Shown one piece after another: positions 12,701 through 59,428 of a DNA stretch of 60,968 bases. This DNA is from Catajapyx aquilonaris (Eukaryota). Both the position numbers and the translations under genes were made by a program. Under the pieces are notes generated by a model. It did not search any database, was not told the DNA's origin, and saw nothing but the letters and a program-made list of their open reading frames with translations. The DNA lies in NCBI GenBank assembly GCA_000934665.2, contig KZ538572.1:1-60968 (forward strand), given 5' to 3'. How positions within the stretch are numbered: the first letter of the stretch is position 1; every line of letters begins with the position of its first letter.

Positions 12701-15700
12701 GGATGAGATGTTCTCACGGACTATCATCTCCATCAAGGGAAAGGAGTTCGAGTGCAAGTGCGTGTCTGCCTTTTTAGGTGTCAAGCTTCGGTAGCTCACT
12801 CAGGCTTCTACTTCGCAGGGCCACAAGCGGAACTCTGGCGCATAGCGAGATTCCGGACATGGGCTTGGTGCGGGACGGCACACCCTGCGGCGACAGCCTG
12901 GTAAGTTTGCCAGGAACACTAATACTGTACCAACTAGGTCGGTATACACACAACACGGCAGGGGAACTTTTTTTCTGGAGTGCTGAGAGGGTGTTAGATC
13001 TGCCACCGTACAGTACACATGAATGTCAAGAATTTGTTTGTTTACTGCATTTACTGACTCATTGAAGTCACATCCAGGGCAAATAATGCTGCGGAATATT
13101 TATAGGGGAGAGCCAACAGACGCGTGACCCTGACATTTGTGTGGTGGGGATGGATATTTTAAAGCTCCAGTAAAAATACCTCGGTTATACTGTTGGTTTG
13201 GAGCACCTGGGGAAAAGGGATATCCTAATCTGGGTTTGTACTACAGTGCATACAGTGCAGACAGACATCGCCTTCTATTAACAGAGATGGCAAGCATTTG
13301 GACTTTTAGACATATCAACAGCATTAGCTGTCATTGTGTCTAATGAAAGTAGTCTCATCTTCAGTTCAGGCCCTTTTTCGTAATGAATTTCGACGAAACT
13401 GCGAAAGGCCGCTGATGACCTTTTGGTGACGGTCTGATTGCTATAGATGTGTTCGTTCCCGCTATATTCATCATTCCACCCGATGGACCTTTAAAAATTG
13501 TTGCTCACTGAGATTATGACATGATCCTAGCCTATAATTCCGATAATGCACTCGCACTCCATGCCACTGCAGCCTATGCCCAAACAATAATTTTCTGCTT
13601 TCTCACATAGATATGTATCAACCAAACCTGCGTGAGCATATTTCCGTACATGGACCCGGGTAAATGCCCATCCAACAATGTGGCCCTTGATTGCTCGGGT
13701 CACGGAATGTGCTCCAACATCAACACGTGCCACTGCGACGGGGGCTGGGGCTCGGGGGATTGCTCCGAGGTGACCAATACCAGCTTCCATCATCACGGCC
13801 TGCCTGGGGTCACTCCACTGCCGCCCACCCCCATCGACGAGCAGGAGGACAAGCCCACCGAATCGCCTTACCTCATCAATGCCACCAAGACTTCTTCCTC
13901 GGGTCAGTTTCATTGAAAGCAGTTCCTTCACTTGATATCACTTACTACTGTATTGTTATGAATTGTACATGGCAACATTGGCAGACTGACAATCCTTTTC
14001 GTCATTCACTAGTTCAAATCAATGGGCGATGGTACTTTGAGGTTGTTCCGAATATGCAACAGCAATACTTCGACGAGAGTGAGTTAAGCATTTCAAGGAG
14101 AGGGCTAACAAACAGTTTCAAGCACCGTCCAATTTACAGCACGTTCAGTTCCTTATGATAAACTTTGAAAGAAAGGATGCAGTTCTTCAGCAAGTTGCAA
14201 TATTAGCTATCATATCACATACCCATTTTAAGGAGCCGTTTCTTGCGAAACTACCAGCGGTCTATTGCTCAAAATTAGTCGATCTGACAATATCGAGAAA
14301 TACTTGAAATTATAAAAATACCGAACATATTTTAGATGACCTTGTGCTTTACATTTTTTCTGAAACGGGCTGATTTTCCAACAGGTTTGTTCCCATGAAT
14401 TACCAACAATTTTTCTAAGGAGAAAATAACTGGCAACATTTCTTAGTAAAACAGCCTCTGGAAACTGGGAATGTAATAAATCATTTTATGCAAATTTTAC
14501 ATGTCCAAACGAGCAACCAGTTACAAAAAAAGGAACTTCGAGTGTTTCAGTAAAGAGCCGGCATATTTTCTGCAGTGCCCTTTGGCAGAATCGAATTGTT
14601 TTCCCTCTGATGGTGCCAGAGGACTCGCATTGCTTACTTAGGGCACTTGAACATCGTTTCACTTATGACGCACCAACTTGCTGAAGGAGTGAACTTCCTC
14701 TTAATTCGACGATGCGGAACAACTGGTTTTTGTATACACCAAATAACGTTCGCCCCCTAACCTTAGCTAATGAGAATTGACAGCACTAAGCTAACACTTG
14801 ACTATACTTGACCACTGCAGTAGTTGCACAAGGTCGATAAAGAGAGAGCTAAATCCGACTAATCCAATCCCCCCCTACATAGTATGTTGGTGTTAGTTGC
14901 AGTGTTTCTCAGCAACTAATGTTGTGTTAAGCTATTAAGGTAGGAGGAAGTCGGAAGGCGGGCTGGACAGGAGAGAGTGAATTTCCCCTTACAGTTCGCA
15001 ACGCAGACCATCTCAGCACGCTGTCCATGGTTTTTATCCTGGTGGGGGTGGTCAAGGGCGTCTTCATATGTTTCGCGCTCATGGCCGTGTGCTACAGGTA
15101 CCCTCGCTGCCCCCACCTTTTCTCTCTTTATACTTGCCTCCTTTTATTCTCTTTCTCTCGTCTCGCTCTCTTTCTCTGTACGTGGTGCCGCTGTTGGTGG
15201 TGCTGATGGCCGGTGGGGCTGGTGCTCACGACTGATGACTGACTGACTGGTTGACTGACTGACATGTCGCTAGCTGTGTTATTCCCCCTTTCTTGTTGCC
15301 CTCCCCCACCAAAGAGAGGGGGGTGGGGCCCTTACGCTCGTTCTGTCTTTCTTGTTCTTCCCCTTCCATCTTTCTCACAAATCTTACCACGCCATGGTTG
15401 GGACCATATGCCGCCCTCGCTTGAGCATGGGGATCACTGTACCAAATGAGAAGTGTATGCCCCCAACGAAAACGCTAGCCAAGTCATTCTTGAGTTAATC
15501 TTGTGTACAGTACAGTACGACATTTTCTTTCTTTATTGGGGGGCAGAAACTTCCTCGTTGAACCTAACAGTTATGCTCTACTACAAATAGACAAACTAAT
15601 AATAACCTGCATGGGCTAGATCCGGTGCTCATGAGAGGTGCGATGTGTTTGTTATACGAGTACACCTATAGAGTAGCGAAGTGTACAGTACAGTACATGG

Positions 15701-18700
15701 CATAGTCATTCATGTCAAAGGGTGTCCCGGCATGGCTTGGTGGATTGTGGAGAGGGATGAGTTCATCCCAGTGTGTGTACCGTACAGTGCCATACAACGA
15801 ACTGTCTTGAGAGCGCCAGACATGGGGAAAGAGAGTTTTTCTCCATGAAAAGAATCAGCAGCCCGCCTTCCCGCACTCCCCTCCAGACACCTGATGATAC
15901 CCAGCCTCAAACCTAACTAGTCACGTGTGTGTGTGGTGTGTGTCTCTCTCTTTCTCTTTTGGAATCGTCTGGCTGTGGATCACTCGGAATGACGATGCAG
16001 TGAGGCAACTAGGATCCAACCGCGTCTTGTTGGTGGTGGTGCTCGTTTCCGTGGTTGCGGGGGTGTTCATAGTGTTTGCTCTCATGGCGCTCTGCTACAG
16101 GTCAGTTGGGCCGTCGACCCGCCTCCTCTTCTACCCCGTCCTATACCTCTGGCATGATGAATCTATCTGGTCTCTCTTTTCTCTTTGGGCCTACTGCCTC
16201 TGTCCGGGCCAGCACGTGTGTTGCTTCTACTGCCACCCTGCATGGACACCTACTCGTTCACGTGACAGACGCTACTAGCTGTGTGCTACATGTCACCTTT
16301 TTTTTAACGTAATTGTAGCGTGTTCAAAACTAATGGGTTTTTGGTCGGCGGCATTTTTATCATGGGATTCCCTAACGGAAAAATGTGTCAGAGGCGTACA
16401 AAATATCGTTACATTACTCCGCTCACTAACTATCTTATACTGCATTGCAACTTAGCATATCTCACTACTGTACCGTACTTTATTACTATAGAGTGTTGAG
16501 TAGCACTGTACTTTAGTGTAACTGTACTTGCAGTTAGTTCTAATAATACAGCTTGCATGCAGGTGTATCTATCAATGCAGTCAAGTTAAGCCTTAGGATG
16601 CAAACAATGCCGCCTATTTAAAAGTCTATTTTTTGGATCTCTAAGAATATAATTATATTTAATCAGGGCAACCCTTCTCCAACTGTTCTGCACTGTTTTC
16701 AAAGTACATCACATCAAACTCTTGAGCAGTACAATTTCGTAGATGTAAATAGTAGCCTAGATTTGAATGGCAAGGTAGGCGTGATGGGCGGAGTATATAC
16801 TGTAGAGTAGAGTAGAGTTGGAGAGTGGTTGTGTGGGTTAAGGAAACAATTTTAAACAAACAGTGTGAGTTCGTGGGTCAGACTTTGACTTGTGGCCTAG
16901 GAGGAGTACCGTGCCAAAATACGAGCCGCCATTTGGGAAGAAACCCCTGAGCAAGAAGAAGGTCCCCATGGGATCGGCAGAAGAAGCGGCCGCGGCTCTA
17001 GAAGGTGCCAACCGCATCATCACTTTTGGCTCCATGCCGTCCTACAGGTATAGTCAGAGGTAAGTTCTCGGCCGCCGCTTTCTCCACCCTGCTTGCCACA
17101 CTGTACTCACTGTAATCATCTCATAGAGAGCATAAGCTGCAACAGTTGAAGAGGATGGGGGGGATGAGCGGAATGGGCAGCATCGGCGGAGGTGCAGGGT
17201 CTGCAAGCGAAGAAGAAGCGGTGCAGTCGGGGGAGGAGGAGAGCGTGTCCTTCATCGACCTAGCCCCTAACAATCTGTCCAAGCTCCCAGAGAAGGGCAT
17301 CCTGAAGAAGCCGCCATTCTTCGAGTCCCGCGACGACGCTGCCGACGCTCTCTCGCAGTCCGACAACAACCTGGAGGATGGCATGATGGGCGGTGCTGGA
17401 GGGGCCGGCGGCGGAGGAAGTGCTCTTAGCGAAGTGGAGCGAACACTCAAGAGCCTCAATGGCTATCACGAGGACATCCTCGAGGCCCTCCGATCCGCCG
17501 CATCCCATCGTGGGGCAGCAGGTCTTGGAGGTATAATCGCACTCACACTCTTCAACACATATCTGAGCACTCATGTCATGTTCAATTCCAGGCGCTGCTG
17601 GAGTGGCGGCTCTTACCGAAGAGCTGCGAAAGTCCCTCTCGGACGGTTACCCGGAGTATTCTTCGGAGTTTCCACTTCTGGGCAGCCAGGAAAAGCTCGG
17701 AGGGGGAAGCGGCGCTGGAGGGATGCGGTCGTCGATGGGCCTCGGTGGCAGCGGGATTTTTGGAGGCAGCAGCAGCGGCGCGGGTATGGGAAGCCTGGCA
17801 GGTTTAGGAGGAGGTCTTGCAGGGTTAGGGGGCGGTGGAAGCGGAGGTGGGGACTCAGCTGAAGAAGATTCGATGCCCCCCTGCGGTCCCATCCGGATCA
17901 GAAACCTGGAGGACCTCATCAGGCAGCTTGAACATCACTCTGGAAGGCACATGAGCCCTTCTGGGTCCGAAGATATCCGGATGTCAGAGACGGAAGCGGA
18001 TCGACATTACCGCTTAGATTCTTCGTCCGCACAGGGGTAAGTTTTTGGGTTCGTTGCGCCAAAAGGAGCTAGCAGTTCACGACACGAACATGCAGATTCC
18101 ACAGAGACGAAGAACCGGCGAGGTTTGTGTACGGAAGGTACAGACATCCACCAGCGGCAGGGGCGCCCGGGGGAGGGGGAGGAGGGCCGGGGGGAGGAGG
18201 GGGTCCGGATGATTTGTCCAAGAGGCTGGGAGGGACAGCTTCGGGGACGTCGTCGGCTTCCTCGTATCACACCCACCACCATCCTCAGAGTCACGCCCAT
18301 TCCCATCACCACCACCACCATGAAGCCATCTACGCAACAGCTGCTGATCCTGACCGAGACAGAGACACTGCTGATTCTGAGAGGTAGGCAACTTTCTGAT
18401 GCCCTTCTCTTTTGCTCTTGCTCTCTCTCTTTCTTCCCACTCCCTCTATATGCCTGTCGCCTCTATAGAGTTAAATATAGTTAGTTACAAAGAAAAAAAA
18501 AACAGAGGCCGATCTCTCCGACCCAACTTATCTCGCCCCCAACTATTCAGTAATGCATTTGAGCCAGCTATTTGAAAAGAGTGTGAGAGAGGAAAAAAAA
18601 AAATCCAACTCGGAGGTTCACTGCAGAAAGTCATTTGTGTGGTGCAAATTGCATATTATGAAGTAATGAGTTATTGGAGAGTAATGAAGTCAAGGCGTAT

Positions 18701-25954: not shown

Positions 25955-28716
25955 ATGGTGAAGGAGGAGGAAGAGGAAGAGGAAGCTGGGGACGAAGCCA
26001 TGGAGCTGCAGCCCTTTCAACATCAGGTGGGTGGACATACCAGGCTGCTTCAGTGGGACCGAGCCACCGTGTGTAAGCCACTGGTGGGCAGGGAGGCTGC
26101 TTTTTACCTGCGGGCACCACCTGACCTTCGTGCCCTGGCCCCGGGCTACAAGGGGTTGGCCAGGATCCAGGCGGACAAGTCCGGAAGGCCGGCCAAGCTC
26201 AGCACACTATCACGACCGGCGCTGGACCATGCTACCACATCGGGGCAATGTGAGTTGAGACACCCTGTAGGTGCACTTCCAGCACTGTTTGTCAAATGCA
26301 AAAGGTTCGAAACACCTGTCCAGTGTTGTTGTTTATGTTGACTTCTCCGTGGTGCTGATGGTTGTGTAGCACCGCAGGATACCATATATTAAAAAATAGA
26401 TACACGTGTACGTACAAGGGGATCGCCTATCACCACTTCTAATTGAAGTGCGCGATTACTGCATATGAAGTATTTGATTGTGTGTGACAAAATGTACACT
26501 TGATTACCCCACTTGGCGTTATTGCCGTGATTTTATGGAGAAAACAATTTTTAAAATGCATTTGCGTGCTGTAAGTTCGCATGCTTGTTAAATAAGAAAG
26601 GTGCCGTGACAGTGTGACGTTGGTAAATTCATGTGGGTGGGGGGTTTTCGACCTTCTGCTAAAGTTCAGAAGCTGTCAGCAAGTCACCATGGTAACTTAT
26701 GGGAAATGCTTCGGGGGAATCCTGGCAGGCAGTATAGGCAGGATCGCTTTTCCAGCAAAATGTCGAAAATCCATTATTTTACACATGACGCAATGCAATG
26801 GCTGGTACGGGCAGATCAAATTTTGCTCAATATTTGGTTACGATTACTCACAAAAATCAACTCGAGTTTTCGAAAGCAGTTATCTAATGTGGAATGATGC
26901 GCACACTGAACCAACAAATAACTGTTATAGCCTATACAGTTTACATATGGTGAAGATTAGAATTTAACTGGCACCACTCATTGCAAGTTTAGCATTAAAA
27001 CTGGATTTGAACTATGTGCTATCTCTAGGTGCGATATAGTAGCTATAGAGGGAAATGTCTTTGTTTTTGTTGAACAATAGAGGTGGTTGACACCAACTGA
27101 TTGCTAGCCACCAACAAAAAGCCGAAGGTGGTCGTGGCCAAATCTCCGTGAATCACCAATTCGATAACCCCCGTGCTCCATTAGCAAAGTCGTAACCAGG
27201 TTGTTAGCCTTTGACTGTTTTGTTCATATAACGTATTTTGCGACTTCCCCTTGTTTGTCCGGTATTCTCATCTGCAGCCCCAGCCTTCCTGATAACGTTG
27301 TTTACTCCGGATAGTGGCAGTCGCCTCACGCATTTCAAAAGAGGTAACGATGCGAAATTCTGCACATTTCTATAACCCGAATTCTTGGCAGGAGACGAGA
27401 ATTTCGTCCCCAAAAAGCGTGGGAAGAATCTGCTTTTCATTCATAAATGCTACCAGAAATAGGTGTCGTGCCATGGAAGGTGCGTCATTCCAGGTTAAGA
27501 AATTGTACTCCGCTTCACCATTATCTGACAAAACGACCTCCAGTTTCCCGGGTGTAACTTCAGCTTCCAAGGTATAATGACAAATATCCTTCTTAGCCAA
27601 TACACAACGTCACATGCAAAGACCACAGTCATAGGCAGGAAACAGCCTTGTATTTGCGTCTTAACATCGCACTCAAGAGAGATTAGCTTATCTCATTTTT
27701 TATGGTCAGGTTCGTCTGTAAGATTTGTTGGAATTTTGTTTTCGCTGCGTTGAGCCAAACGCATTTGTCACAGAATTGGCGCCATATGTGCCGTCTGGAG
27801 GACATCTTAAAATTAATCAGGGATTATGAAGCCATACGCCTTCGTTTATGTAACCGGTTCACGCGCCTTAATCTGATTTTCTACGTCAGGTTTCATCCTC
27901 CTGGAGAATGTGGCTGCACGATTCAGACGTCCATGCGTCCTAGATCTGAAAATGGGTCGTCGTCAGCATAGTGACGATGCCCCGGCCGACAAGCGGGCTA
28001 GGCAACAAGCAAAGTGTGCCAATTCGACATCGGCGACACTTGGGGTTCGGCTGTGTGGTATGCGGGTCTTCCGACCGTCGGTGGCTCCAGATGTGGAGGA
28101 TGACGATGAGGAAGACGACGATGGGGATGCCAGATGGCTGGAGCGTGACAAGTACGTGGGTCGTCGACTGGATGCGGAGGGATTCCGTCGGGTCATGCGG
28201 CTCTTCTTCCACGACGGTGCTCACTTGAGAAGCGCGGTGGTCAGGATGGTCCTCAGAAGACTTGAAACATTGAGGGCTGTCATCCAGAAGCAGGAATCGT
28301 GCCGTTTTTACTCTTGGTTCGTTTGATAGCTTATCTGAGGTTGCTTCAAAGGGTGAAGCAAGTGGACCTAATGATTGCCCTTTGGTTACAGCTCATTGCT
28401 GATTGTGTACGAGGGGAGCGTGCGGGCGGGAGAAGAGGTGGAGGAGGAGGAGGAAGAAGAGACGGAGGAGGAGGAAGAGGCGTCTGAAGCATCGGAGGCG
28501 TCCGAAGGTGAGTCGGAGGCATCGGGGGCATCTGAAGAGATCCGGAAAGAGCGGTACCCTGGGGCGGAGGTTCGCCTGATCGATTTTGCTAACGCAACGG
28601 TGGGAGAGGAGGCCAAGGCCCAGTCTGCCCTGCACTCGGGGCCTGATTCCGGTCTGCTCCTTGGGCTGGACAGCCTCCAGCGCATCCTGGAATGTCTTCT
28701 GGCCCGTGACACATAG
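25955..28716 (+). CDS. IP6K: Inositol hexakisphosphate kinase, about 348 aa
   Basis: Exons 25955-26249, 27890-28316, 28392-28716. Motifs [29 protein letters not shown] (PxxxDxKxG), [27 protein letters not shown]. Confidence 0.93.
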
Positions 28717-31669: not shown

Positions 31670-33934
31670 CTAGAGAATTGTACACTTGAGCTTTTTCCTC
31701 TTGCGCTTCTCCTTTCCCTTGGAAGTGTTGAGCTTGGTGTCTTCCAGTTTGCGGGAACGGATCTCCCGCATCAGGTCGAAAAACACCTGCAAAGGTCGTG
31801 CCAGCATGGGGTCACTTTGGGGAACACCAGGAGGAACAAGCAGTGGATTCATGGGAAAACTTTGTGACTTAGGTAGCTGTAGGAAGACAGCCCCCTACAG
31901 TGGGTGGTGGGTAAAGAGTGCATGTACTGTATGTACCTGGTGTGGCGATGAAAAGCTCAGGGCCTGATGCAGGTGGACAGGGTGCTAGGATCCATCCAAA
32001 GGGAAGTTTTAAGAAGAGACAAAGAGAAGCGACTTAGGTGTCTACTTGGAACAACTAGAAGGAAAGGCCCTTTGCTTTGCCATAAGCCTGTAGAAAACTT
32101 TTTTCTTTATAATTTTTGAAAACGTTTGCAACTACTACACTTCCCCCTACCTAAGTGTGCATGTATCTACCTACATGTACTGCACATAAAAGTAGTTTCT
32201 TGAACCCTTCACATTAAAAAAAAAACTCATGCTGAAAATAGTAAATGATAAGAAACTTTTCCCAGAATACATATGCTACTTTAAGACATCTACATGGAGG
32301 GGNGGGGGGGGGGGGTGATGTAAAAAAAGTGCAACTACTCTGAAAAGGAAGTCACCTGCTGGCATCTCAGGTGAGAACAACATCCCAAATATAGACACAG
32401 GCGGATGGGGGGTGGGAAGTTAAAAAGCCCTGGAGGCAGAAAAGCCAGTCAGCAAACAACAGAAGAAAGCAACCCACAAAAAGCAACCAAAAAGCCATAT
32501 AACCACGACCCTTTTTCTCTAACCTTGTCCACATTATCCCTCGTCTTGGCAGAGGTCTCGACGTAGGGGACGCCCCATTGCTGAGCCCTGCCCTGGGCTT
32601 CCTGCAGGGAGACCTTGCGCTTCTCATGCAGGTCACACTTGTTCCCCACAAGCAAGAAAGGGATGTTATCGTCGTTTTTCACGCGTAGAATTTGCTCGCG
32701 AAATTCCTGCGTGGCCTGGAAGCTGTCATCTTCTGTGATGCTAAACACGCACAGGAAACCCTCTCCGCTCCGGAAGTAGTTGTCACGGATGGCAGCATAG
32801 TCTTCCTGGCCAGCAGTGTCCAGGATGTCAATCTGTACTTCCTCTCCGTCCAGGACCACCTTCTTCCGATATGAGTCTGCTTTTGTGGGTTCATAGTCCT
32901 CCACAAACTAGGCAATTGGACAAACGCCAGTCAGAAACATTGTGCACGTGAATTGTAAACAATAACAAAGTACACCTCAAGGCGATCCGCATCATCACCT
33001 GAATATTTTCAAGGCATGACTACACCCAGGAAGTATGCGTATATATCGAGACAATGCATCCATCCGGCGCCACCAAAAATATACAATGCAACTATGTGTT
33101 ATAAAAATATGCCCGAAGGTAACCTGTAACAGATCCGGCCAGTCATATAATACACGACCTTTTTTTCCCTCATGCCGCACCATGCAGTCAGATTACAACA
33201 GTAACCTTGGGGAAAATGCGTACATTCCCATCTGATCTGTAGGCTATATCACGTTAAGAACTTCGTAAAACTATCTTTATGGCATTTTCACAATCGCATG
33301 TTACCATGCTCTAGCAGCATGAAAGCGGCACATTTCTCACTAGACTCGACACTTAGAAGGTCACGGAAACTTTTTCAACCAAATTACTACATGCAGTATT
33401 TAATCAGTTCGGCATAGCATCGAAAATAACCGCCCTACTTTAGCTGACACAAATGTCAACATATCCGATGTATCGGATATCAAGTTTCCCTTTCATAGCA
33501 CCAAACACCACGTCCCGCTCTATTAAACATCGGAAAAACCCCTGCCACATCAAGTTATTTCAGGTCATATTATTGCTTTGCACCAGAGGAATCCTTTCTT
33601 CTCCGTGTCCTACAAACCCACTTATCACGAGACACCGTTGCCTTAGGTCCTGCCAGATGCTTCCAAGAATACTGAATCCCTCCATTAAAAATGCCCCGTC
33701 ACGTACCCCCAGGTTTAACAGGTGGTCACAAAGAAAGGCAGCTGCATACCCCTAGGGCGGTACCCCGATCTCATTTGCTTTGTATATGCTCGAAACATGC
33801 TTTCATTGGATGGGATACTTTACCTCGTCGTACATGAACTGTAGGGTAAGGGCCGACTTGCCAACACCACCGCTGCCCACCATGATGACCTTATGCAGCG
33901 CCGGTTGCTGACCACTCTTCTTCGACGATGCCAT
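31670..33934 (-). CDS. RalA: Ras-related protein Ral, 203 aa
   Basis: Exons 33934-33824, 32907-32524, 31786-31670. GSGGVGKS P-loop, YEPTKADSY effector loop, [17 protein letters not shown], polybasic tail with CTIL CAAX box. Confidence 0.97.
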
Positions 33935-35948
33935 CTTGTTCTGTCGAGAAGGATGATTGTTTGGTGGCGGCCCCCGGGCGACCCACCCCCTAATCCCCTT
34001 CCAGTGGCAGCCCGGGGGCAGCCTCTCCCTCAACCGTTCCAGCATGTCCCTAGCCGCCACTCGCACTTTGTCCATGATCACCAGCCACTAACAACCGCTT
34101 GCCCCCACGGATTTCTACCAACACTGAACACCTGTCCAGGATGGTTTCAACTCGACGGACTCTCTTTTTCCTTCCGCCTTCCTAGAGGCCACCAACCAGA
34201 AACCTCTCCCGTTCTTTTGGGCTACACCCCTTCCAGTTACATGCAAAAGGGCCCTGCCGTATGTGTGTGCGTTTCCCCCCCTTTTCCCAAGTCCCAGTTC
34301 GCATCTAACCAGAAGAATGGGGGACGTTGACTTCCTTCCAGGTCAAGGCAGTTACTACCTGTTCGACCCCTCCTCGAAGACCTTTTCCGCTCTGTCAACA
34401 CCTTATAAACACCGCCCTTCCCTTCTGCCAAGTGGAGCCGCACTTCCTTTTTAGATACTCTTCATTTCTCCTCCAATCCTAAATCTTGGGCGTTGATGTC
34501 ATTACTAGTTATCTGCACCGTTTGTTCAAGCTTGCGTATACATCATGGATAAATATTCGTCAATTTTTCCGCGTCCTAGGGCAGGGTGAACCAATAGTAA
34601 TAGTGGTATAGGTCAACACCCCTCTTATCATCAGCACGATGTACTTCAAACGGACAAAACCCATGGGAAGTACCATATTTACTTGTCGCAATTGCTATTG
34701 CTAGACTGAACACTGTACAGTACCAGCAAGCAGCCTTGTTCACATTCTGCCATTAAAAATGGGACGAGGCTTGACCTTGTCAGCAAAAGTGCACAAGTAG
34801 CATGCACCAAAGACAAAGCACAAATAAAAAAACGTGACACACACCACTGCGCATCCGAACTATCGCAAAAATCCTTCCCGCTATTTTGAACCTGGTCCAA
34901 GACGCAGCCGGATATTTCAAGCCCCATATTTAAATGGTTAATGCACTTTTATGTAATCAAAAAGGGCTTTGCCACTTAGCGCGCCACAACTGTATGTTTA
35001 CGTTGATACCTCTTTATAAATAGCAGCGCCCGCATTATCGCCAAAAAGCGAGCCAAAAAGCTTGAGAAAGGTCCTTAGAGGGCATGCACCTTATTCTTTT
35101 CCGCAAAGTTCCTTCTCGCAAAATGCCTTGCATGCAAAATCCAGGCAATTATGCATAATTGGCGCAACCGCACGGTTTAATGCGTACCGTACCACTCTGG
35201 TATGATAACGATTTTTTCTTTTCTGTGTGTGTTTTTTTTAAAGCCCATCGCAATCCGACAGAATGCGTCATTGGCACGTGCATGCCAAGGAAACGTCATT
35301 TCTGCGACAAGACACTGTAATATGTGGGCACGAACGCCATCTAGCAGCACGAATCGGTGCTAAAATGACGTCACCGTCGGAAAGGGCGTGGATAGCGCGA
35401 ATTAAAGGGGTTATTTTCTTATAAGAAAGGGGTGGAGGCCATGTTTTAAGCATAGGGGCGGCCCCGAGGCATAGTCGGGTCTGGAGATGCCCTACATTCT
35501 TGGATCGGTACATTTCTTCCCACGCATCCTTTATCAGCCAGATTAGGAGCAAATTGACACAAGGGTCGAGATAAGAGTGGGGGAGATCAGTCAGCGGCCA
35601 CGTCCCATTACTTCATGCCTGGCCCGTAATTTCTAAGCAATTGTTATAGCGGCTGGTGTCACCAATATTGGGCCTGACGTGACATCACTGCCCTTACTTG
35701 GACAGGATCCGGTTAGATTTGCGCCCACGCAGACGTGCCAACTGGGGGTAAATCTGCCTGGGAACAATCGAACACTGTCAATATGGAACGACAGTGATGC
35801 AGCTGTCAAGGCCCAGCTCTAATAATCACACTGATTAGTGCCCTACCGTTGCTCAGTGTACCCTCGTCCTCAAGATGGGTGCTGCACCCACCCCAGTACA
35901 CGCCCCGTTTCGCCGGCCACCAGGCACTAGGTTCGAACACTCTCTCAC

Positions 35949-37963: not shown

Positions 37964-40900
37964 ATGGAGGAGAAGAAGGACTGGCAGCTGGACCTCCTCA
38001 TGGAGAAGCTGAGGGGGAAGTCCAGCCACTTCAAGTCCTTCGGGGAGAGCGCAAAGGCACTCCGGATGGCACTCATGGTACTCCTCTCGCTCGCTATTGA
38101 CAATGGCTGTCACTACAGTGTCGTGCTGTTGTTGACACCTTTTTCGCTTTAAGTTCCGCCATGAAAGATCAATTATGGTGAATGAAGAAGTTACCATTGA
38201 TATAAGTCAACAGGCATATCATTAATGTAGGCGTTCACTGTACATCTGGGGTCGAAATATTTGGATGCAAAGGTGCAATGTGTAATTTGCACTCCAAAAT
38301 TGTCATCTGCACTCTAAAGTGAAAATATGCACTCAAATTGGTAGTGCTTTTAAATATAGCTATACCCAAGAATTAAAAATTAAGCCCTACCAGGACATAA
38401 TTTGCACTCTAGATGAAAGTCGGGAGTGCAAACTTTGCACCTGGATTAAGTCGACCTTTGCCATACATATTCAAGAAATAGGTCATTATAATCATGCTCT
38501 GGGAAGTAGTTATTGCCAAAGATATAAGACACTATAACGTTCTACATAACCTGTGTTAGAATAATGTTTACTTGGGATCAACTTTTCATTATGGTTTTTT
38601 TTGCAGGAGAAGCGCTATCCACTAGATGCAACGGAGAAGTCACAATTGCAGAAGTGTCTTGACACACTTCAGCATTCAATAAAAGTCACCTCCATGCAGG
38701 CCATTGTGGAGCGGCTGGAGAGTGTAGCCAGGCAGTTGGGGTGAGTATGATTTGAAATATCATATGCACACTTGGCTGTAAAAGGAGTTATCTCAATTGA
38801 TTGTGAACAGAAAATGTCAGTGTGACTTACTAAATGCATAGAGAGAGAAAAGTCATGCACAATGATCATTGTCCCTCACCGCCTTGCAAAACAATGCCTG
38901 ATTTTATGAACCATCAACAGTGTGGACATTGAACAAATAGGAGAGAGAACTTCAGGGATACCCAACTCCTGATTTTGTTTGTTCAGTACATGTATGGTAT
39001 TTGTTAATTAATTATTTAACTTATGAAATACATGGTCAATGTTTTTTCTCACATATGAAGGAAATCTGTTTATCTACATCTACATATCTGTAAATGAGGA
39101 TGTTTGTGAGTGGGTGGGTGTGTTTGTTCGCTATAGAAACCCCTACACCGCCTTAAACTAGCATATCGGGGATTACTTTTGTCAAGGAATTTAACGCTGC
39201 ATGTTTCAGCTTCCGATAATAAGCCTAACTCCCACAATAAGCATATTCCCAATTCTTCTCCCTATTCTCCTCAACAATAAACAACTTAACAATATAAACA
39301 TCAATATAAACAAAATGTCCCTTCAACAATATTTTTCAAGTTCTCATGGAAATGCCATCATTCATATCGATGTCTCATGCCCTTTTTGACACATCGTTCA
39401 ATAATTCAACGCATCCATCAACTACACTATCCGAGGAATGATGGCCACCTCACATGAGTTCGTATCGTATAGTCATGTCAGGAAAAAAACTGCACAGGAT
39501 TTCGCCGGATTTGTAAGTAGGGCTGAAGTCAAGTATGCGGGACATTCGCCGAATGAATTAGGAAACATTACCTGCAGCTTGCCGACCCTTTGATTCGTTG
39601 TTTTGCTTCTGGGTTTGAAGTCGGGGAAGTGACCATGGACTCCGGAATTAATTCCTCAAGCTTGACCAGAATACAGATGGGATCATTGTCATCTCTCAGG
39701 TTGTATCGTAAGTTGCTATGTTACGAACAAATTGATTCGGCGAATGTCCCATATACTTGACATGAGCCGTAAGTAGACATCCCAGATGCAAATGAAACCC
39801 GACATGCAACATTCCCCAAGTTAAATACAAAATTTTCCACCTGGCATAGGCACATTTCTTCAGGGAAAACAGGGGATGAGGTGGAGGGGGAGATATATTT
39901 TGGAAAAAAAATATAAAAAATATAAAAAAAACAGTGGTCATTCAGTATTTTCTTGGCCCAAATCTATCCGCTTTCATTTTTTACACATCCTACCGGAATT
40001 ATTCCATGTGTCGACTTCGCTAACCGAGGCATGACTGGCCACCTCAGACCTTTCCTCGACCTGACAACCCATATGACCCCCCCTTCCCCGATTTCTTCAA
40101 AAAATGTTTATATTACCAAAATGTTCCCCCGCGTAGCCTACAGTGCTTATGTAGATTTGAGTTGATTATTCCCACAAAATTTTATTTCTTCGCCCTATTT
40201 TTTCAATTTTTCTGTCTTTTTGCTTTTATTTCCCTGGCTTTCCCAAGACATGCTGACGACCCTATTTTGCAAATTTTACAAATGAATTCCTAATGTGGAT
40301 TTAGACACCCGTACCTTCACAACCAAAACACACCTGGGCAACACCGGGTCACCTGCTAGTTGCTCATAAATTTTGTGTAATTAAGTTAACCAGTGTGAAC
40401 AGGCCTTATCACTAAATGTGGATGACTTTTTCAGACTGAAGTTTCGAGCCGGTCCAACTGGAACTGATTTTTTCATCTCATCGGACATGTTCTACTTGGA
40501 AATAGTTCTGGAGACTTCAGGGCAAGTCAGAGATGTCATAATCCAGCATGAGGGAAAGACGGAGCAGCAGGTTAGAAATTCAGTCACAAAAACTATTGTC
40601 ATTTGGTGGACCAAAGATTTATGGTGTGTTATTACCACCAAACTATGAGCTTTGCTACATTTTAAATTACATTCAAGATGCATAAACAGGGTCTGGCCAA
40701 ACTTGGGCCGCTGTCCCTCTAGTGGGGTGTGATTGTTATGTAAGGTCTGGCTGCCAGAGGTGCAGCTGTGCTATCAGGGCCTAAATCTGAGCGCATGCAA
40801 TGGCTGATGTGGGCAGACTGTGCGTTTGGGGCTCTGTTTGTGGTCACATTCGGACTTGCCTGACCCAGTCGGACAACTGAACCCCACTGGGAGATAGGGG

Positions 40901-43900
40901 ATAAAATAGGTTCTATTTTAGTGCAATTCTTCTTTCTCTACACGCGTTAGTATATTCGCAATAAATTGTAAGAAAATTTATACGAGTACATTGCACTCCG
41001 GATAATCTGTGATAATGAATGCACAGGTGTTTCCAGATATTCGGAAAACACGGATAATCCAAAAACGCCCCTAGACACCGTAAAAATGAGCTATGCAGAG
41101 GTTTTTAATGAACATTACTACTATACATACCAGTACTACGTACGCTGCATTAAAGGGACACGCCACCCAAAAAAAACGTTTGACTCTAANNNNNNNNNNN
41201 NNNNNNGAGGTGTCAAAGTGTGTCGTCTGCTAATGAGCGGCGCCGCCACGAGGGGAACAGGGGAACTGGAGGGCGCGCTCTGGGATGGGCCTAAGCGCGC
41301 GGGCAGGCAGGAGCAGCCCTCCAGTTCCCAAGGTCCTGAGGGCGTCGCTGGCGGACGGCCAGCTTCTAACGCACTATATGAATTTCCCCACTTTGACCCC
41401 TCCCCCTGGGATTACCGTTCCGCGTAGCAAAAAACGGATTGCACCTTCGGGTTCAGGATTTTTTGCCAGATTTTTAGTCAAAACTTGTTGATAATTTAAA
41501 AAGCTACGGTACGTTAGATCATTAGAGGTTTAGTTGGACTTCTGTAAAAAGTCTGTTATATTAATCTTTGCGAGATTTATTGGCATATTATAATTTTGGA
41601 CTTTTAAATTTCTAATTTTTGGCGATGCAGTACGGATAATCCACAACATGTATATACCGTGTACGTAATAGGAAGTCCAGTGTATAAAATATTGCTGATT
41701 TTTAAATTGCATTTTACCACTTCCTATTCTTCACTCTTGTACTGTATACTTACATCTATACTGTACTCCTGAGATTATCCAGGCTAATATGACTGCACTG
41801 GTGTTGCGGGATAATCGGAAAACACGGATAATCGGAAAATGGTCCTAGAAAATGAGCTATTGACAGGTTTTTAATGTAGTGTACTATTGTGCAAGGTTAT
41901 TGGGAACAAGGTTGAATCAAAATAATGAAACTTAACAATCATAGATTTTTACTTTGTCTTCTAGAAAGAGTCTGTCATATTTTTTCTTCGGCAGGACATA
42001 TTGACAGTGGGTGGAATTTTCGTCCCACTGCTAGATAGTCTACTGATAACTTAGCAGTACCATTGTTGGCACTTATACTACTGCTAAGTTAGCAGAATCA
42101 GCTCTTCGCAGTATCTAACAGTGTGTCGAAAATTCGACCCATTTTTTGGGGGGCATTAATTTAAAATGTTATTTTTTGGCCATGCACGGATAATCCGCAC
42201 CTGGAAAATCGAGAGTACAGTGCAGTGTGTTTGTGTATCAGGAGTGTATAAAAAAGTAGCAGGCTGTCTAATGTCTAATTTTGATTTAGATGCCATGTCT
42301 GGTAATGAAATTACAGTCCTAATGTTATCACGAGCTAGCTAGCTCTTGATGTTAATGAATATGATGGCTCAATAGAGTGATTTGTGCATCAAAGGATGTC
42401 GGGCAATGCCTGTCTGTTAAATTCTGGTCCAGCCTGGTCGCATGTTTTCCTCCTCACACTCTGGCAAACTCTACTACTGTTAGAAATCACATGTAAAGTA
42501 CAATTTCAGCACGTACATCACGTACAGCACGTACGCATTTCGCAACCCCAGCAACAATTTATTGCTCATGACATTCCCCTATGGTTGAAATACGTGGGAA
42601 ATGGTAGCCAGTCCCTAACAGAACATCAAGCCACCTATATTTGCAACAGAAATGCTTCTAAATGTCCTGGGAGTTGAAAGTAGTCCTTGAGGAACATCAT
42701 TTTCCTATGCTACTCCAGTACTCCATGAAAGCACGGGAAATATCGACCCAGACGCACCAGTGGCGCCGCCAGTGGCTGGACCCACTTCAGCTTTCTACCG
42801 TATCGAGGGAGTTTTGCCACCATACTGTGTTTATCCATCTTGATTTCATTGGAAATACAGTAAAACTTCTATAAGTCGAATCTCCATGGGACCGGAAAAA
42901 AAACTTCGAGTTAGAGAAGTTTGGAATTTCTTAAGCACATAACTCTATAAGGAAGCCTACCTTTATATCCAGCTACAAGAGGTGTTCAAAACTTAAAAAT
43001 AACTCTCACTATCACACTTACAATGTTCCTCATTGTTTTGTTTTTTAAAAAATCTCCATTATGGACATTTTGTCTACTCTTAGATTCAAGGATTCAATTG
43101 TCACAATCGGGTCAAACACTTCTTTTGGTACGTCTGATAGATGGAGATCAGGAAATTGAGCCTTTCTATACATGTGTCCTATACTCTCGACCCTTCTGCT
43201 GGGAAATGAGAAAATTTTCGTACTCGCCAACATGAACTTCGGTTTAGGGAGACTGAAAATGCATTGATATCCCATCGTAAGGCCCTGCCTGCACTTCGAG
43301 TTATGGAGAACTTCGAGTTAGAGAAATTCGAGTTGGGGAAGTTTATTTCCTATTATTTTACATTGTGACCAACCAACCTCATCATTTTCTTCGACTTACA
43401 GAGAACTTCGACTTAGGGAAGTTCGACTTATGGAAGTTTTACTGTAATTTTAATAATGTATAGGATACCTATTTTTTGCTTGGCCCTCTCAAGATTTTTG
43501 ATGCATATGGTACTCGATAGTGCCTTTAGAAAAGTGGAAGCTAGAATCACAAAACAGTCTTCTTGATATGAGAGACAGTGGTTGGAATATTGCAAATTTG
43601 CGTGTTTTTTTTTCAAATCTCAAATGGCTAAAGAAGGTGCTGGCAATCTTCAATGGTTTTAATATTTATTTTTATGCCTGTGATGAATGAAAACGCATTT
43701 TAAAGCCACACTGTTCACTAAAACTCGCAATTGGCTTGTTGATTGTACAATTCTTTGTGTGCAATGTGGCAACACTTCAAATGGGGGAATAATAAGTCAT
43801 TTACGATAATGTGCCTCAAAAATTGTGCATCATCTGCTAATGAGACATAAATTGAAATAAAAATTATCCTATTGAATCTGGGAAAAATTATGCAACATTA

Positions 43901-46900
43901 AAAATCCTCAGATCAGGAACACTTGCAATATTGTACAGTAGCTTGCACTTTTCTAGAAGACACTATTAAGCACTATTTAATTTTTCTGCCTCTAGGGTTA
44001 GATGGCCGGTGTTTATGTGAAACCTTTCAGTAATTTTTTATTTTGACAGAGATTTTCTTGGAATTATGCATTTCTTAAAATATTCAAGAGTCAATTGAAG
44101 ACTTCAATGATGAATGCAAATTATACATCAGAGATTTTTTTTTTGCAATAACAGTCAATGTTACTTCAGGGCTACCTGAATGTTGTGTAACATTTTGTGT
44201 TATTGATTCACACTTCTTAGCTGTATTTTATAATTTCCTTATTTTCCAGAGTTGTGCTGAGTTGGTTCAGTGCTTGACATCTGGAGACTTTGTGGAGTTC
44301 ACTGCGCACTTGGAAGGCCTCTCATCAATTTACCAATTGAATGCAGACAAGAAGCAGAAGAGTAAAGCATGGGTGTCCCTGCAGGCCCTTGAAGCTGACC
44401 TTGGAGCCCTTGCCCAAGTACAAAGCTTCATCAATGAGCCTCACAACTTGGTTCATCGGTCCCCAGTTGGGATCCTGCAGCGCAGGCGTGGAGGACATCC
44501 ACTCAAGCTCACTTACTTCATCTCACCATATGATTTGCTCGATATCGAGAACAATGCATCGATACAGCTGACAGTTGATAATGTCTTGCAGCGTGACCTG
44601 GGATCATCAGTGAAGTTACTCATTGAAGGGTCCACTGCACATAAGCTACAGGTATTTTTCAGGTTGAAAGTGATAATTTCAACTGCTGCCTCATATATAA
44701 ATTTTTATGACTAGAAACTTGTCCGCTGATATTTGGGATATTTGGGGATATTGGGACATTTCGAATAATTTTACTTTCTCTGACAACTTGAACAAAATTT
44801 GATGTAACTGTACCTACAGGAGTTGGGAAGGATCCTTTGAAAAATCTGACACATACAGTGATTTTCATTTTAAAACAATACATTGAAGAATACAAAGCCA
44901 TCCTCCTTTTTGATGCCACACACATACATAAATTTTCTCACTAATGGTCTGGCAACTACAAAATTGAGTTAGGAAAAGGCCAAGAGAAGGGAAGAATGAG
45001 CTGGGGATTTTTTGAAATGTGAATTGTGATAGTCAAAAAATGTCACAGGAACACTGGTGAAGATAGGTTATTACCACTTTTTATTATGATCTGCACACCT
45101 TTCCTTGCTAGACCTCACAATTCACTTATTATAGAGTGCTTTTGAGTGGGAGAAATCTTCCTCTAAAATGGTACTTTGCAGGTGACAACACTGCTGAGTG
45201 TGGCCCGTGGAAGTGATGGGAAAAGCTCTCCATCATTCTCTTCTCTTACCCCGCTGAACAGTACTACCCTTCCTGCCTGCTTTGTGCTGATGATGCCGAG
45301 TGCTATTCCTATATGTGTTCCCCTGATTCAAAAGTTGAGCCAGGCTACAGCAATTGAGTGTGGTGACCTCAGCAACCCAAAGCCACTGCTCAGTCTTATC
45401 TCTCACTATGCCTCAGGAGGTCAACTTGACTGCAGCAACAACCGAGGACTCTTTGTGGTAGGTTGTTTAGACTTGAGTAGTGTGTAAAATAGTTACAATT
45501 TTTGTATCTTTCCAGACACTACCAGACCAGCAACATTGCTACTTTATGACAGAAAATGAGAGTCTGCAAGGTGTGACAGTATCCACTATTCCTTTTACCC
45601 ATCCAACACATGTCCCTCAGATCCTCACTGTCCTGAGGCAGCAGACACTCTTCAATGTACTTGTTGCCAGTTGTATTCGGCCAGCCAGTAAACCAGGTGA
45701 GATTTATCACTTCGTAAAAGGGTGTGGTGTGTCAAGCATTTGTCTGCCACTTTATGGCTCTTTTTTCATGTTTGTATTCATTGACTAATTAAGCATGTCA
45801 CTCAGAACTGCAAATATTTTGTCTCAGAATTTGACATTTAATAATGCGTCTATTCTTTGAGAGAATGTCAACTTCTCCTGCTATCTATAAATCATGAAAT
45901 TTATGCTGTTACATCCTTTTGTTACAGACCTTGAGAATGCAATCATGTTTGAAGTGACAACTGTCTCCTGGAGTCAGGTACTGGTATCATTTGAGCATCC
46001 CGTGGAAGAAAGCATGGCTACTGCTGAGTTCAACCTGGCGGACATCACCAACCCAAAATGTCGCCTGTACACTGGATCAAAGGATGCCATCTTGAGTGCC
46101 ATGGAAGAATATTCATCCAAGGTTTTGCAGCGTTGCCTGAGCATCCCTGTGACCATGCGAGCTTTGTTAAGAAGATGGCAAGCTGTGGCTGTCGCATCAG
46201 CATCACCACCGAGTGCTGATTTGGCGTTATCAGTTGGTCGATATGTGTCAAATCAGTCAGCATCAGATGCAAACCAGAACACCAAGTTTCTCCCTGACTT
46301 TGATCCAAAGATTCTTGCTAAGATGGAGCCACCATCAGCACCATGCACACCACCTGTTGGAGCTGTTGTGGTTGGTGACTCAACGCCAGAGATGGCTCCA
46401 GTGTCGGTGTCACCATCACCATCAGGAGAGACCCTCAATCCTTTTTTGTCCAGCCTCCAGAGCGCATTTTCCGGGGCGCTCTCTGGCAGTAGTGGACTAC
46501 CGTCACCACCTGTTGGTGCTGCAGGCGGCACCAAGACAGCTATGCTACTTGGGTTGCTAGACCCACAGCAGAAGCGGAAGGGGCGGAAACGACGGGCAAC
46601 TCCAGATGGCCCCGGAACTCCAGGTACTCCTGGAACTCCAAAGCGAAAAGCTTCAGAAGATGCAGAAGACCCAGAGGAGGATACTGATCCAGACAAAACA
46701 GTTGATTTGACAGAAACTGGAGGTGATGAGAGTGATATTGATGATTCTGTTACAGTAACCTCACTGCTGCCACCAAGCACAACGGTGACAGCATCAGCAG
46801 CATCATTTCTTTCAAAAATGGCTCCTGGCCTTGTTGTGTCTGAACAACCTAGGAAAAAGGTACGACGTGGGGGCAAGTTGGAAACAAGGTCAAAGTCTGT

Positions 46901-54970: not shown

Positions 54971-55114
54971 TACTGGGCAGGGCTGAACTTAGGAAGAAGG
55001 GAAGCGTCTGTCAAAATTAAGAATCTCATATGATCACACGCATGATCATATGAGTATGAGATTCTTAATTTTGACCGACACTTCCCTTCTTCCTAAGGTC
55101 AGTGCTGTCCAGTA
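54971..55114. repeat. Long inverted repeat / foldback MITE
   Basis: 60-nt arms 54971-55030 and 55055-55114, 54/60 complementary. Confidence 0.85.
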
Positions 55115-56307: not shown

Positions 56308-56511
56308 GGTGCGTTTACATGTGAGCGATTTGATTTTCGTTGATGTCATCGCCGAGTGGTGCATCGCTGAGTAACCAGAATAACCAATATTGTTTGAGGT
56401 GAAAGTAACAATCTATATTCGCCTCAAACAATACTGGTTAACCGGATTACTCAGCGATACACCTCTCAGCAATGACATCGCATGATCAGATCGCTCACAT
56501 GTAAATGCACC
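56308..56511. mobile_element. Foldback MITE (PIF/Harbinger-like termini)
   Basis: GGTGCGTTTACATGTGAGCGAT...ATCGCTCACATGTAAATGCACC with complementary arms over about 90 nt. Confidence 0.8.

Positions 56512-56844: not shown

Positions 56845-59428
<2,584 letters not shown>

What the first reader, a model, noticed from the sequence alone, without database searches (positions are those of the whole stretch)
14943..15884. Long-range RNA duplex that buries the 3' splice site of TM exon A and loops it out
Seen: collinear antiparallel complementarity over about 900 nt. GGAAGGCGGGCTG (14953-14965) pairs perfectly with CAGCCCGCCTTCC (15859-15871). GGAGG 14943-14947 pairs with CCTCC 15880-15884. GGAGAGAG 14970-14977 pairs with TTTTCTCC 15837-15844 (two G-U). 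The pyrimidine tract TTTCCCC 14982-14988 pairs with GGGGAAA 15824-15830. ACAGTTCG 14991-14998, containing the acceptor AG itself, pairs with CGAACTGT 15798-15805. The partner strand ends about 30 nt before exon B's putative branch point. Inference: the duplex masks exon A and brings the upstream intron to exon B, acting as a structural switch.
Basis: partly seen in the sequence, partly recalled or inferred. Interest (0 to 1): 0.88.

Follow-up and report, generated by a model that had tools for sequence, protein, structure and literature searches.

The report
Intron stem looping out a TM exon
Two stretches of intron on either side of one of two alternative membrane-anchor exons of an arthropod ADAM gene can pair into a strong RNA stem that probably helps the cell skip that exon, a familiar kind of splicing control that is still unproven here.

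Summary
The five complementary blocks are in the sequence exactly as stated, and they exceed chance. The gene is a mind-meld/unc-71-type ADAM. It has two tandem, homologous transmembrane exons: A at 14995-15097 and B at 16001-16100. Taking one keeps the reading frame; taking both or neither breaks it. The A/B pair is old: insects and Daphnia carry both types. A spliced contig from a public run joins 13902 directly to exon B and skips exon A.

Only part of the proposed duplex holds up under folding. The perfect 13-bp GC-rich core (14953-14965 x 15859-15871) has pair probability 0.93-0.94 in 1 to 2.6 kb contexts, and the outer GGAGG/CCTCC helix has 0.4-0.7. The three inner helices, including the one over the acceptor AG, have probability at most 0.007. 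A local hairpin pairs the AG instead.

The inner blocks are still non-random (2 of 2000 shuffles), so the arms look like an old inverted duplication of exon A's acceptor region.

Best reading, at confidence 0.5: a lineage-specific docking/selector-like stem that loops out exon A and favours exon B. I could not test conservation, because introns of the two other arthropod loci found do not align. This would be a new member of a known kind.

The parts
13611..13902 (+). End of the upstream constitutive exon (EGF-like/stalk region); donor G|GTCAGT at 13902/13903
   Evidence: Contig joint 13901->16000 (GT..AG, cut +1); reading frame
14939..14952 (+). 5' arm, outer part (includes GGAGG 14943-47)
   Evidence: Pairs with 15872-15891. 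Pair probability 0.4-0.7. Not significant on its own (560 of 2000 shuffles)
14953..14965 (+). 5' arm core, GGAAGGCGGGCTG (docking-like element)
   Evidence: Perfect 13-bp complement of 15859-71. Core dG -27.9. Pair probability 0.93-0.94
14970..14998 (+). 5' arm inner blocks (GGAGAGAG, TTTCCCC, ACAGTTCG) over the pyrimidine tract and acceptor of exon A
   Evidence: Complementary to 15798-15844. Non-random (2 of 2000) but pair probability at most 0.007 in context
14977..14999 (+). Local hairpin that pairs the exon A acceptor AG (14977-83 with 14993-99)
   Evidence: Pair probabilities 0.71-0.98; present in the local fold
14995..15097 (+). TM exon A (103 nt), A-type membrane anchor with a mid-membrane lysine; donor CAG|GTACCC
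   Evidence: Translation. 71-96% identical to insect ADAM sequences. No read cover in X1
15121..15128 (+). CTCTCTTT partner of GGAGAGAG (14970-77); a short-range stem that brackets exon A
   Evidence: Minimum-energy structures (local fold z -2.3; 4 of 200 shuffles fold as well)
15798..15844 (+). 3' arm inner blocks (CGAACTGT, GGGGAAA, TTTTCTCC)
   Evidence: 15823-15849 also folds into a hairpin of its own
15859..15871 (+). 3' arm core, CAGCCCGCCTTCC (selector-like element upstream of exon B)
   Evidence: Blocking it costs 8.6 kcal/mol of ensemble energy
15872..15891 (+). 3' arm outer part (includes CCTCC 15880-84)
15912..15961 (+). Putative exon B branch point (CTAAC) and distant pyrimidine tract, followed by an AG-free zone up to 15998
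   Evidence: Read from the sequence. The same layout occurs in L001. The branch point is inferred
16001..16100 (+). TM exon B (100 nt), B-type membrane anchor; donor CAG|GTCAGT
   Evidence: Contig joints 13901->16000 and 16098->16899. 75% identical to exon A over 52 nt (D2)
16901..17047 (+). Next constitutive exon (juxtamembrane RRSTVPKY...SMPSYR)
   Evidence: Acceptor from the joint. Donor inferred from frame and homology

Best explanation
The gene is a pancrustacean mind-meld/unc-71-type ADAM. It carries two mutually exclusive exons, each encoding an alternative transmembrane segment. A GC-rich element 30-55 nt upstream of exon A's acceptor (14939-14965) pairs with its complement about 110-140 nt upstream of exon B (15859-15891). 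The pairing is a perfect 13-bp core that extends to about 24 bp, with dG about -41 to -43 kcal/mol.

Shown: the helix is predicted to form with high probability, and it closes a loop of about 890 nt that holds exon A with its pyrimidine tract, acceptor and donor.

Inferred: looping out lowers use of exon A, which already has a weak donor (GTACCC) and an acceptor AG caught in a small local hairpin. It also brings the upstream donor at 13902 closer to exon B's branch point, which lies 20-25 nt beyond the helix. The result would be the exon-B mRNA. Exon A would be chosen when the helix is not formed or is opened. Transcripts with both exons or neither are out of frame and would be removed.

The inner complementary blocks look like remnants of the inverted duplication that created the arms. 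They are not stable helices at equilibrium.
For: - The pairing is exact.
- It is stronger than shuffles: 0 of 1000, 0 of 31 whole-intron shuffles, 1 of 150.
- It is the best of 594 tile pairs between intron 1 and intron 2.
- It is the strongest of the 10 long-range perfect inverted repeats in the window.
- Core pair probability is 0.93-0.94 in 1.0, 1.55 and 2.6 kb folds. Blocking the 3' core costs 8.6 kcal/mol.
- Exons A and B are homologous. Each alone keeps the frame, while both or neither give premature stops.
- A spliced contig joins 13902 to 16001 across exon A, and 16100 to 16901.
- Both TM types are used alternatively in beetles and a bee, and both occur in Daphnia.
- The layout (one arm upstream of the first variant, the partner just upstream of the exon to be activated) matches the docking site/selector scheme described in the passages I read of PMC8042237. 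It also matches the competing stems proposed for the two Dscam TM exons in PMC1431710. The abstract of PMC6071210 reports that mutually exclusive exon clusters have an increased capacity for such structures.
Against: - There is no conservation or covariation evidence. Only exons align with the two other arthropod loci found.
- L001, which has both exons, shows no significant pairing at exon A's acceptor (90 of 150 shuffles do as well).
- Perfect inverted repeats of at least 13 nt are common in this window (16), so one straddling an exon is not very rare.
- Raw duplex energy lies only at the 1st percentile of background tile pairs.
- There is no strand bias (sense -67.6, antisense -65.4).
- Only one pairing was found. 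No second, competing selector appeared: the best intron 2 x intron 3 and intron 1 x intron 3 duplexes (-52 and -47) sit within the shuffle range.
- B-type is the commonly annotated form in arthropods in any case (90 of 116 proteins), so exon A skipping needs no special device.
- The helices over the acceptor are not predicted to form.
Confidence: 0.5

Rival explanations
1. The arms are a neutral relic. A stretch of about 60-90 nt containing exon A's acceptor region was once copied in inverted orientation into the intron between A and B and has been decaying since. The RNA may fold there, but the fold has no effect on exon choice.
For: - Aligning the 5' arm with the reverse complement of the 3' arm looks like a diverged duplicate with several indels.
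- The inner blocks are non-random (2 of 2000) yet are not predicted to pair. That fits shared descent better than selection for structure.
- Inverted repeats are frequent in this window (16).
- There is no strand bias.
- No equivalent exists in L001.
Against: - The perfect 13-bp core is the strongest long-range inverted repeat in the window.
- It sits in the layout used by known regulators of mutually exclusive splicing. A 13-bp GC-rich helix that encloses a weak exon would be expected to affect its use (established knowledge of exon looping; not tested here).
Confidence: 0.35
2. The complementarity is pure chance, between a purine-rich stretch upstream of exon A and a pyrimidine-rich intron.
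For: - The purine-rich arm already reaches about -48 kcal/mol with shuffled intron 2.
- Its second-best real partner scores -55.2.
- One whole-intron shuffle reached -60.6.
Against: The core and the inner part are independently improbable (0 of 2000 and 2 of 2000), and they are collinear. Overall z is -6.2.
Confidence: 0.07
3. The inverted repeat serves another double-stranded-RNA function, for example promoting back-splicing of exon A into a small circular RNA, or acting as an editing substrate.
For: The arms flank a single exon, which is the general arrangement that favours exon circularisation (recalled knowledge; no call).
Against: - The 3' arm lies 761 nt from exon A's donor.
- A 103-nt circle would be unusually small.
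- No back-splice joint appeared in the one run laid, and that run did not cover exon A at all.
Confidence: 0.05

Closest known systems
Docking site / selector pairing in insect mutually exclusive exon clusters (Dscam1 exons 4, 6 and 9; also 14-3-3xi and srp)
   Same: - Intronic long-range base pairing lies inside a cluster of homologous, mutually exclusive exons.
- One element is upstream of the first variant, and its complement is just upstream of the variant to be activated.
- The intervening variant is looped out.
- Such elements are often clade- or species-specific in sequence (passages of PMC8042237; PMC4691838).
   Different: - Only one selector was found, so no competition between alternative pairings is evident.
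- There is no cross-species support.
- The 5' element sits 30 nt from exon A's acceptor rather than next to the constitutive exon.
- The gene is an ADAM, not one of the published cases.
Competing stems proposed for the two transmembrane exons (17.1/17.2) of Drosophila Dscam (Anastassiou et al. 2006, PMC1431710; passages read)
   Same: - A binary choice between two alternative TM exons of a neuronal surface protein.
- A stem near the first exon's branch point or acceptor region is proposed to block it and send splicing to the second exon.
   Different: - In Dscam both arms lie in the intron upstream of 17.1 and are conserved in six Drosophila species.
- Here the arms straddle exon A, and conservation is unknown.
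Origin of competing structures by duplication (Ivanov and Pervouchine 2018, PMC6071210; abstract and outline read)
   Same: The regulatory complementarity appears to have arisen by duplicating sequence next to the exon.
   Different: That model uses tandem (direct) duplication of one arm of an existing stem-loop. Here the arms look like an inverted copy of exon A's own acceptor region.

Membership tests
Mutually exclusive exon pair | Adjacent homologous exons of similar length in the same phase; one and only one keeps the frame | tested here: met
   103 and 100 nt, 75% identical over 52 nt. A only and B only keep the frame open; A+B and neither give premature stops
Mutually exclusive exon pair | Both exons are used in transcripts, never together | tested here: inconclusive
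   Exon B use with exon A skipped is seen in one contig. Exon A has no read cover in this organism. In other arthropods, A-type and B-type isoforms of one gene are annotated
Docking site / selector competing RNA structures | Stable intronic base pairing between a docking element and a selector adjacent to a variant exon | tested here: met
   13-bp perfect core plus extension, dG -41 to -43. Pair probability 0.93-0.94
Docking site / selector competing RNA structures | Two or more selectors compete for one docking site | tested here: not met
   No second partner above the shuffle range in intron 2 x intron 3 or intron 1 x intron 3. The 13-mer complement occurs once in the window
Docking site / selector competing RNA structures | Conservation or compensatory covariation of the pairing in related species | not testable with these tools
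   No genome is held for the window. Only two distant arthropod loci were found, and their introns do not align. L001 lacks an equivalent pairing
Docking site / selector competing RNA structures | Disruptive and compensatory mutations shift exon choice | not testable with these tools
   Needs an experiment
Splice-site masking stem | The acceptor or pyrimidine tract is base-paired within the long-range duplex | tested here: not met
   H3-H5 pair probability is at most 0.007. The AG is paired in a local hairpin instead, and the pyrimidine tract is more open when the stem forms
ADAM, mind-meld/unc-71 type | Propeptide, reprolysin domain with HExxH, disintegrin, Cys-rich and EGF regions, TM and a long tail; closest relatives named mind-meld/unc-71/ADAM11-like | tested here: met
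   ORF translations show the HExxHxxGxxHD zinc-binding motif. In one search, 320 proteins reach E <= 1e-20; the top hits are 72% identical and carry Pfam reprolysin/disintegrin/ADAM_CR domains and those names

The most novel reading that the evidence does not exclude
An ancient pair of alternative transmembrane exons in the mind-meld/unc-71 ADAM dates back at least to the insect-Daphnia ancestor. It would be a second Dscam-exon-17-like TM switch in a neuronal surface protein. In this lineage it would be governed by a species-specific long-range RNA helix that arose by a route not yet described: an inverted copy of the regulated exon's own acceptor region placed in front of the competing exon, creating a docking/selector pair in one step.
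Probability: 0.25. Interest if true: 0.6.

Novelty: new member of a known kind. Interest (0 to 1): 0.42.

Why it matters
If the stem is functional, it adds a non-Dscam, two-exon case to the RNA-structure model of mutually exclusive splicing, in a pancrustacean with no close annotated relative. It also suggests that an inverted duplication of a splice-site region can create such a regulator. Separately, the conserved A/B membrane-anchor choice (A carries a lysine in mid-membrane) points to isoform-specific sorting or signalling of this ADAM. None of the library searches that paired the gene or its family with mutually exclusive splicing turned up a paper describing this.

Tried and rejected
- Whole-genome search of the window's own assembly: none is held.
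- RNA runs: no RNA holder is listed. The single run X1 (kind unknown; its contigs are spliced) gave no cover of exon A or of either arm, so exon A use and editing or polymorphism in the arms could not be assessed.
- Rfam on 13500-17500: 0 matches at E <= 1.
- Exon-B-type protein search: 156 candidates, none at E <= 10. B-type isoforms were found through cluster members and the disintegrin-exon search instead.
- RNAduplex on whole introns gave uninformative end-to-end duplexes and was replaced by tile scans.
- Raw-energy ranking against 12,765 background tile pairs is dominated by GC-rich coding repeats, and I dropped it as a test.
- Possible competing pairing around exon B (15782-98 x 16495-511, GTACAGTAC motifs): the best intron 2 x intron 3 duplex, -52.2, lies within the shuffle range, so I did not pursue it.
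- Transposon origin: exon A is ancient and lies between the arms, and neither arm recurs in the window. Rejected.
- Earlier notes of this scan: nothing for this place or for relatives.
- Literature. 'mind-meld' plus 'mutually exclusive': 0 papers. 'mmd' plus 'mutually exclusive exons' plus Drosophila: 2 papers; one (PMC6025963) has no 'mmd' in its main text and the other I judged unrelated from its title and abstract start alone. PMC3303723 and PMC4691838 do not mention mmd or ADAM. I did not read supplements of these papers, and they could list the gene.
Full report
**What is there.** The + strand of 7.6-19.5 kb encodes an ADAM. ORF translations show a propeptide, a reprolysin domain with an HExxHxxGxxHD motif, and disintegrin/Cys-rich and EGF-like regions. 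The disintegrin exon finds 320 proteins at E <= 1e-20 among 523 candidates. The best are only 72% identical (a cockroach and Daphnia), and they are named mind-meld, unc-71 or ADAM11/12/19/22-like. The organism is therefore a pancrustacean with no close annotated relative.

Two homologous exons follow the EGF/stalk exon: A at 14995-15097 (103 nt) and B at 16001-16100 (100 nt). They are 75% identical over 52 nt (D2). Each encodes a hydrophobic membrane segment ending in CYR. Spliced in silico, A alone and B alone keep the frame open into the cytoplasmic tail, while A+B and neither give premature stops (the donor at 17047 and the acceptor at 17127 are inferred from homology).

**Transcripts.** The only public run that holds the stretch is X1, whose kind is not on record. 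Its contigs are spliced. One joins 13901->16000 (GT..AG) and 16098->16899, that is, the upstream exon to exon B to the next exon, skipping exon A. Exon A and both arms have no cover there, so exon A use in this organism is not shown.

**The exon pair is old.**
- The exon-A peptide finds 16 proteins among 17 candidates, 71-96% identical, from a mayfly, a louse, a cricket, beetles and a bee.
- Gene models of Gryllus and Tribolium read exon A and then a frame-shifted exon B, so both exons lie in tandem in those genomes.
- Among the cluster members listed, Photinus pyralis has one A-type RefSeq isoform (X2) and six B-type (X1, X3-X7). Augochlora has one A-type and nine B-type. The Tenebrio/Tribolium cluster holds both types.
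- Of 116 proteins from the disintegrin-exon search, 90 match a B-type motif, 1 matches an A-type motif, and 25 match neither.
- Daphnia pulex isoform X8 has an A-like segment with the mid-membrane lysine, and D. carinata isoforms are B-type.
- A metagenome contig of another arthropod (L001) carries A (1153-1258) and B (2572-2671) in tandem, with the same B donor GTCAGT.

**The observation.** All five complementary blocks are present exactly as written.
- The two arms give -67.6 kcal/mol against -38.0 +/- 4.8 for dinucleotide shuffles (0 of 1000).
- To allow for looking elsewhere, I scanned all 594 pairs of 80-nt tiles between intron 1 and intron 2. The claimed duplex is the best (-61.3) and the next is -55.2.
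- Shuffling both introns gives a best pair of -49.1 +/- 3.6. None of 31 shuffles reaches the observed value, though one gave -60.6. Reversed-sequence controls give -51.3 and -48.7.
- With the 5' arm fixed against shuffled intron 2, 1 of 150 shuffles reaches it.
- The core plus outer part (0 of 2000) and the inner part (2 of 2000) are separately improbable. The outer GGAGG/CCTCC helix alone is not (560 of 2000).

**Against over-reading.**
- Raw energy is only at the 1st percentile of 12,765 background tile pairs.
- The window holds 16 perfect inverted repeats of at least 13 nt within 2 kb.
- Of the 10 with spacing over 250 nt, this one has the strongest core (-27.9) and the strongest extended energy (-64.2).

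**What folds.** In equilibrium folds of 14900-15900, 14600-16150 and 13903-16500:
- The 13-bp core has mean pair probability 0.94, 0.93 and 0.94.
- The outer helix has 0.69, 0.41 and 0.69.
- The three inner helices have at most 0.007 in the first two contexts, and none of their 23 pairs appears in any of the three minimum-energy structures.

What forms instead of the inner helices:
- GGAGAGAG pairs with CTCTCTTT at 15121-28, just past exon A's donor.
- The acceptor AG sits in a local 7-bp hairpin, 14977-83 / 14993-99, with probabilities 0.71-0.98.
- Blocking the 3' core costs 8.6 kcal/mol of ensemble energy. It makes the pyrimidine tract less accessible, not more (P unpaired 0.77 with the stem, 0.36 without).

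The stem therefore encloses exon A, but by this model it does not bury the acceptor. With the arms folded in isolation, the ACAGTTCG/CGAACTGT helix does appear, and the all-intermolecular form is within 2 kcal/mol of the optimum. The inner pairing cannot be excluded in vivo.

**Origin.** Aligning the 5' arm with the reverse complement of the 3' arm gives a gapped but clear similarity that runs through the pyrimidine tract, the AG and the first four exon bases. Non-random blocks that do not contribute to stability fit an old inverted duplication of exon A's acceptor region. Sense and antisense duplex energies are alike (-67.6 and -65.4), so wobble pairs give no hint of selection on the transcript. 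Neither arm recurs elsewhere in the window.

**Comparative evidence.** None could be obtained. No genome is held for the window. The one metagenome scan gave two distant arthropod loci, and only their exons align with the window. L001 shows no significant pairing at exon A's acceptor (90 of 150 shuffles do as well). Published docking sites are often clade-specific (passages of PMC8042237), so this absence is weak evidence against.

**Mechanism and odds.** I favour, at 0.5, a docking/selector-like loop-out. The core helix forms once the 3' arm is transcribed about 900 nt after the 5' arm. It encloses weak exon A (donor GTACCC; L001 and L002 also have weak A donors, GTATAC and GTACAC). It places the upstream donor near exon B's branch point.
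- Shown: the sequence, the energies, the predicted probabilities, the frame logic and the exon-A-skipped transcript.
- Inferred: the effect on splicing.
- Main rival: a neutral relic of the inverted duplication (0.35).
- Other rivals: pure chance (0.07) and another double-stranded-RNA role such as circularisation (0.05).

**Novelty.** Long-range intronic pairing in mutually exclusive exon clusters is well known. Published cases include Dscam1, 14-3-3xi and srp. Stems for the Dscam TM exons 17.1/17.2 were proposed in PMC1431710 (passages read). A duplication model is given in PMC6071210 (abstract read). This would be a new member of that kind. None of the searches that paired the gene or its family with mutually exclusive splicing found a paper on this ADAM's TM exon pair or on its RNA structure. 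Supplements were not read.

Noticed in passing
window 14995-15097 and 16001-16100; proteins P0010-P0051: The two alternative membrane anchors are conserved across insects and Daphnia. The A-type always carries a lysine in mid-membrane (VGVVKGVF; Daphnia VLVVKAGL) and the B-type has SVV(G/A)GVF. This resembles the TM1/TM2 choice of Dscam exon 17, and the library searches run on this gene or its family with mutually exclusive splicing found nothing on it.
   Followed up: partly
window 14617-14867: An unspliced 251-nt contig of run X1 lies in the intron upstream of exon A. Its depth is 6.4, about twice that of the mRNA exons. It has no Rfam match and no unusual fold (z +0.89). Its nature is unknown.
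   Followed up: partly
window 16270-16298: This may be the relic of a third TM exon. It matches the 3' end of exon A at 22 of 29 bases (D1). The donor AG|GT is changed to ATGT, and a stop codon lies just upstream in that frame.
   Followed up: no
window 15503-15518, 15681-15696, 15775-15790, 16468-16530; L001 2459-2475: A GTGTACAGTACAGTAC-like motif is repeated three times upstream of exon B. Complementary ACTGTAC copies lie downstream of exon B. L001 has a similar TGTACGTACAGTG about 100 nt upstream of its exon B. This could be a conserved intronic element or a weak pairing around exon B. The energies are within the shuffle range.
   Followed up: partly
window 15912-16000; L001 2491-2571: In both species exon B has a distant branch-point-like motif and pyrimidine tract, followed by an AG-free zone of 40-55 nt before the acceptor.
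   Followed up: no
window 15040-15055 with 15109-15119 and 15296-15311: The G-rich coding stretch of exon A is complementary to two C-rich intron sites downstream (I5). A stem with the nearer site would enclose exon A's weak donor.
   Followed up: no
L001 2672-2710; insect and Daphnia isoforms: Many insect and Daphnia isoforms extend exon B by 12 residues (SVVVH(K/R)N(F/L)S(L/F)CL) through a second donor 36 nt downstream. L001 encodes this extension, but the window does not.
   Followed up: no
window 39539-39750, 41261-41329, 54988-55097, 56314-56505: Four strong short-range inverted repeats have spacing of at most 180 nt and extended duplex energies of -82 to -108 kcal/mol. They may be hairpin-forming mobile-element remnants.
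   Followed up: no
window 27877-28716 (+), 32449-34087 (-), 44079-49262 (+), 56845-59225 (-): Going only by the ORF translations and my recall, not by any family search, the other genes in the window look like an inositol-phosphate kinase, a Ral-type small GTPase, a Mediator subunit 1-like protein with a long Ser/Pro-rich tail, and an actin.
   Followed up: no
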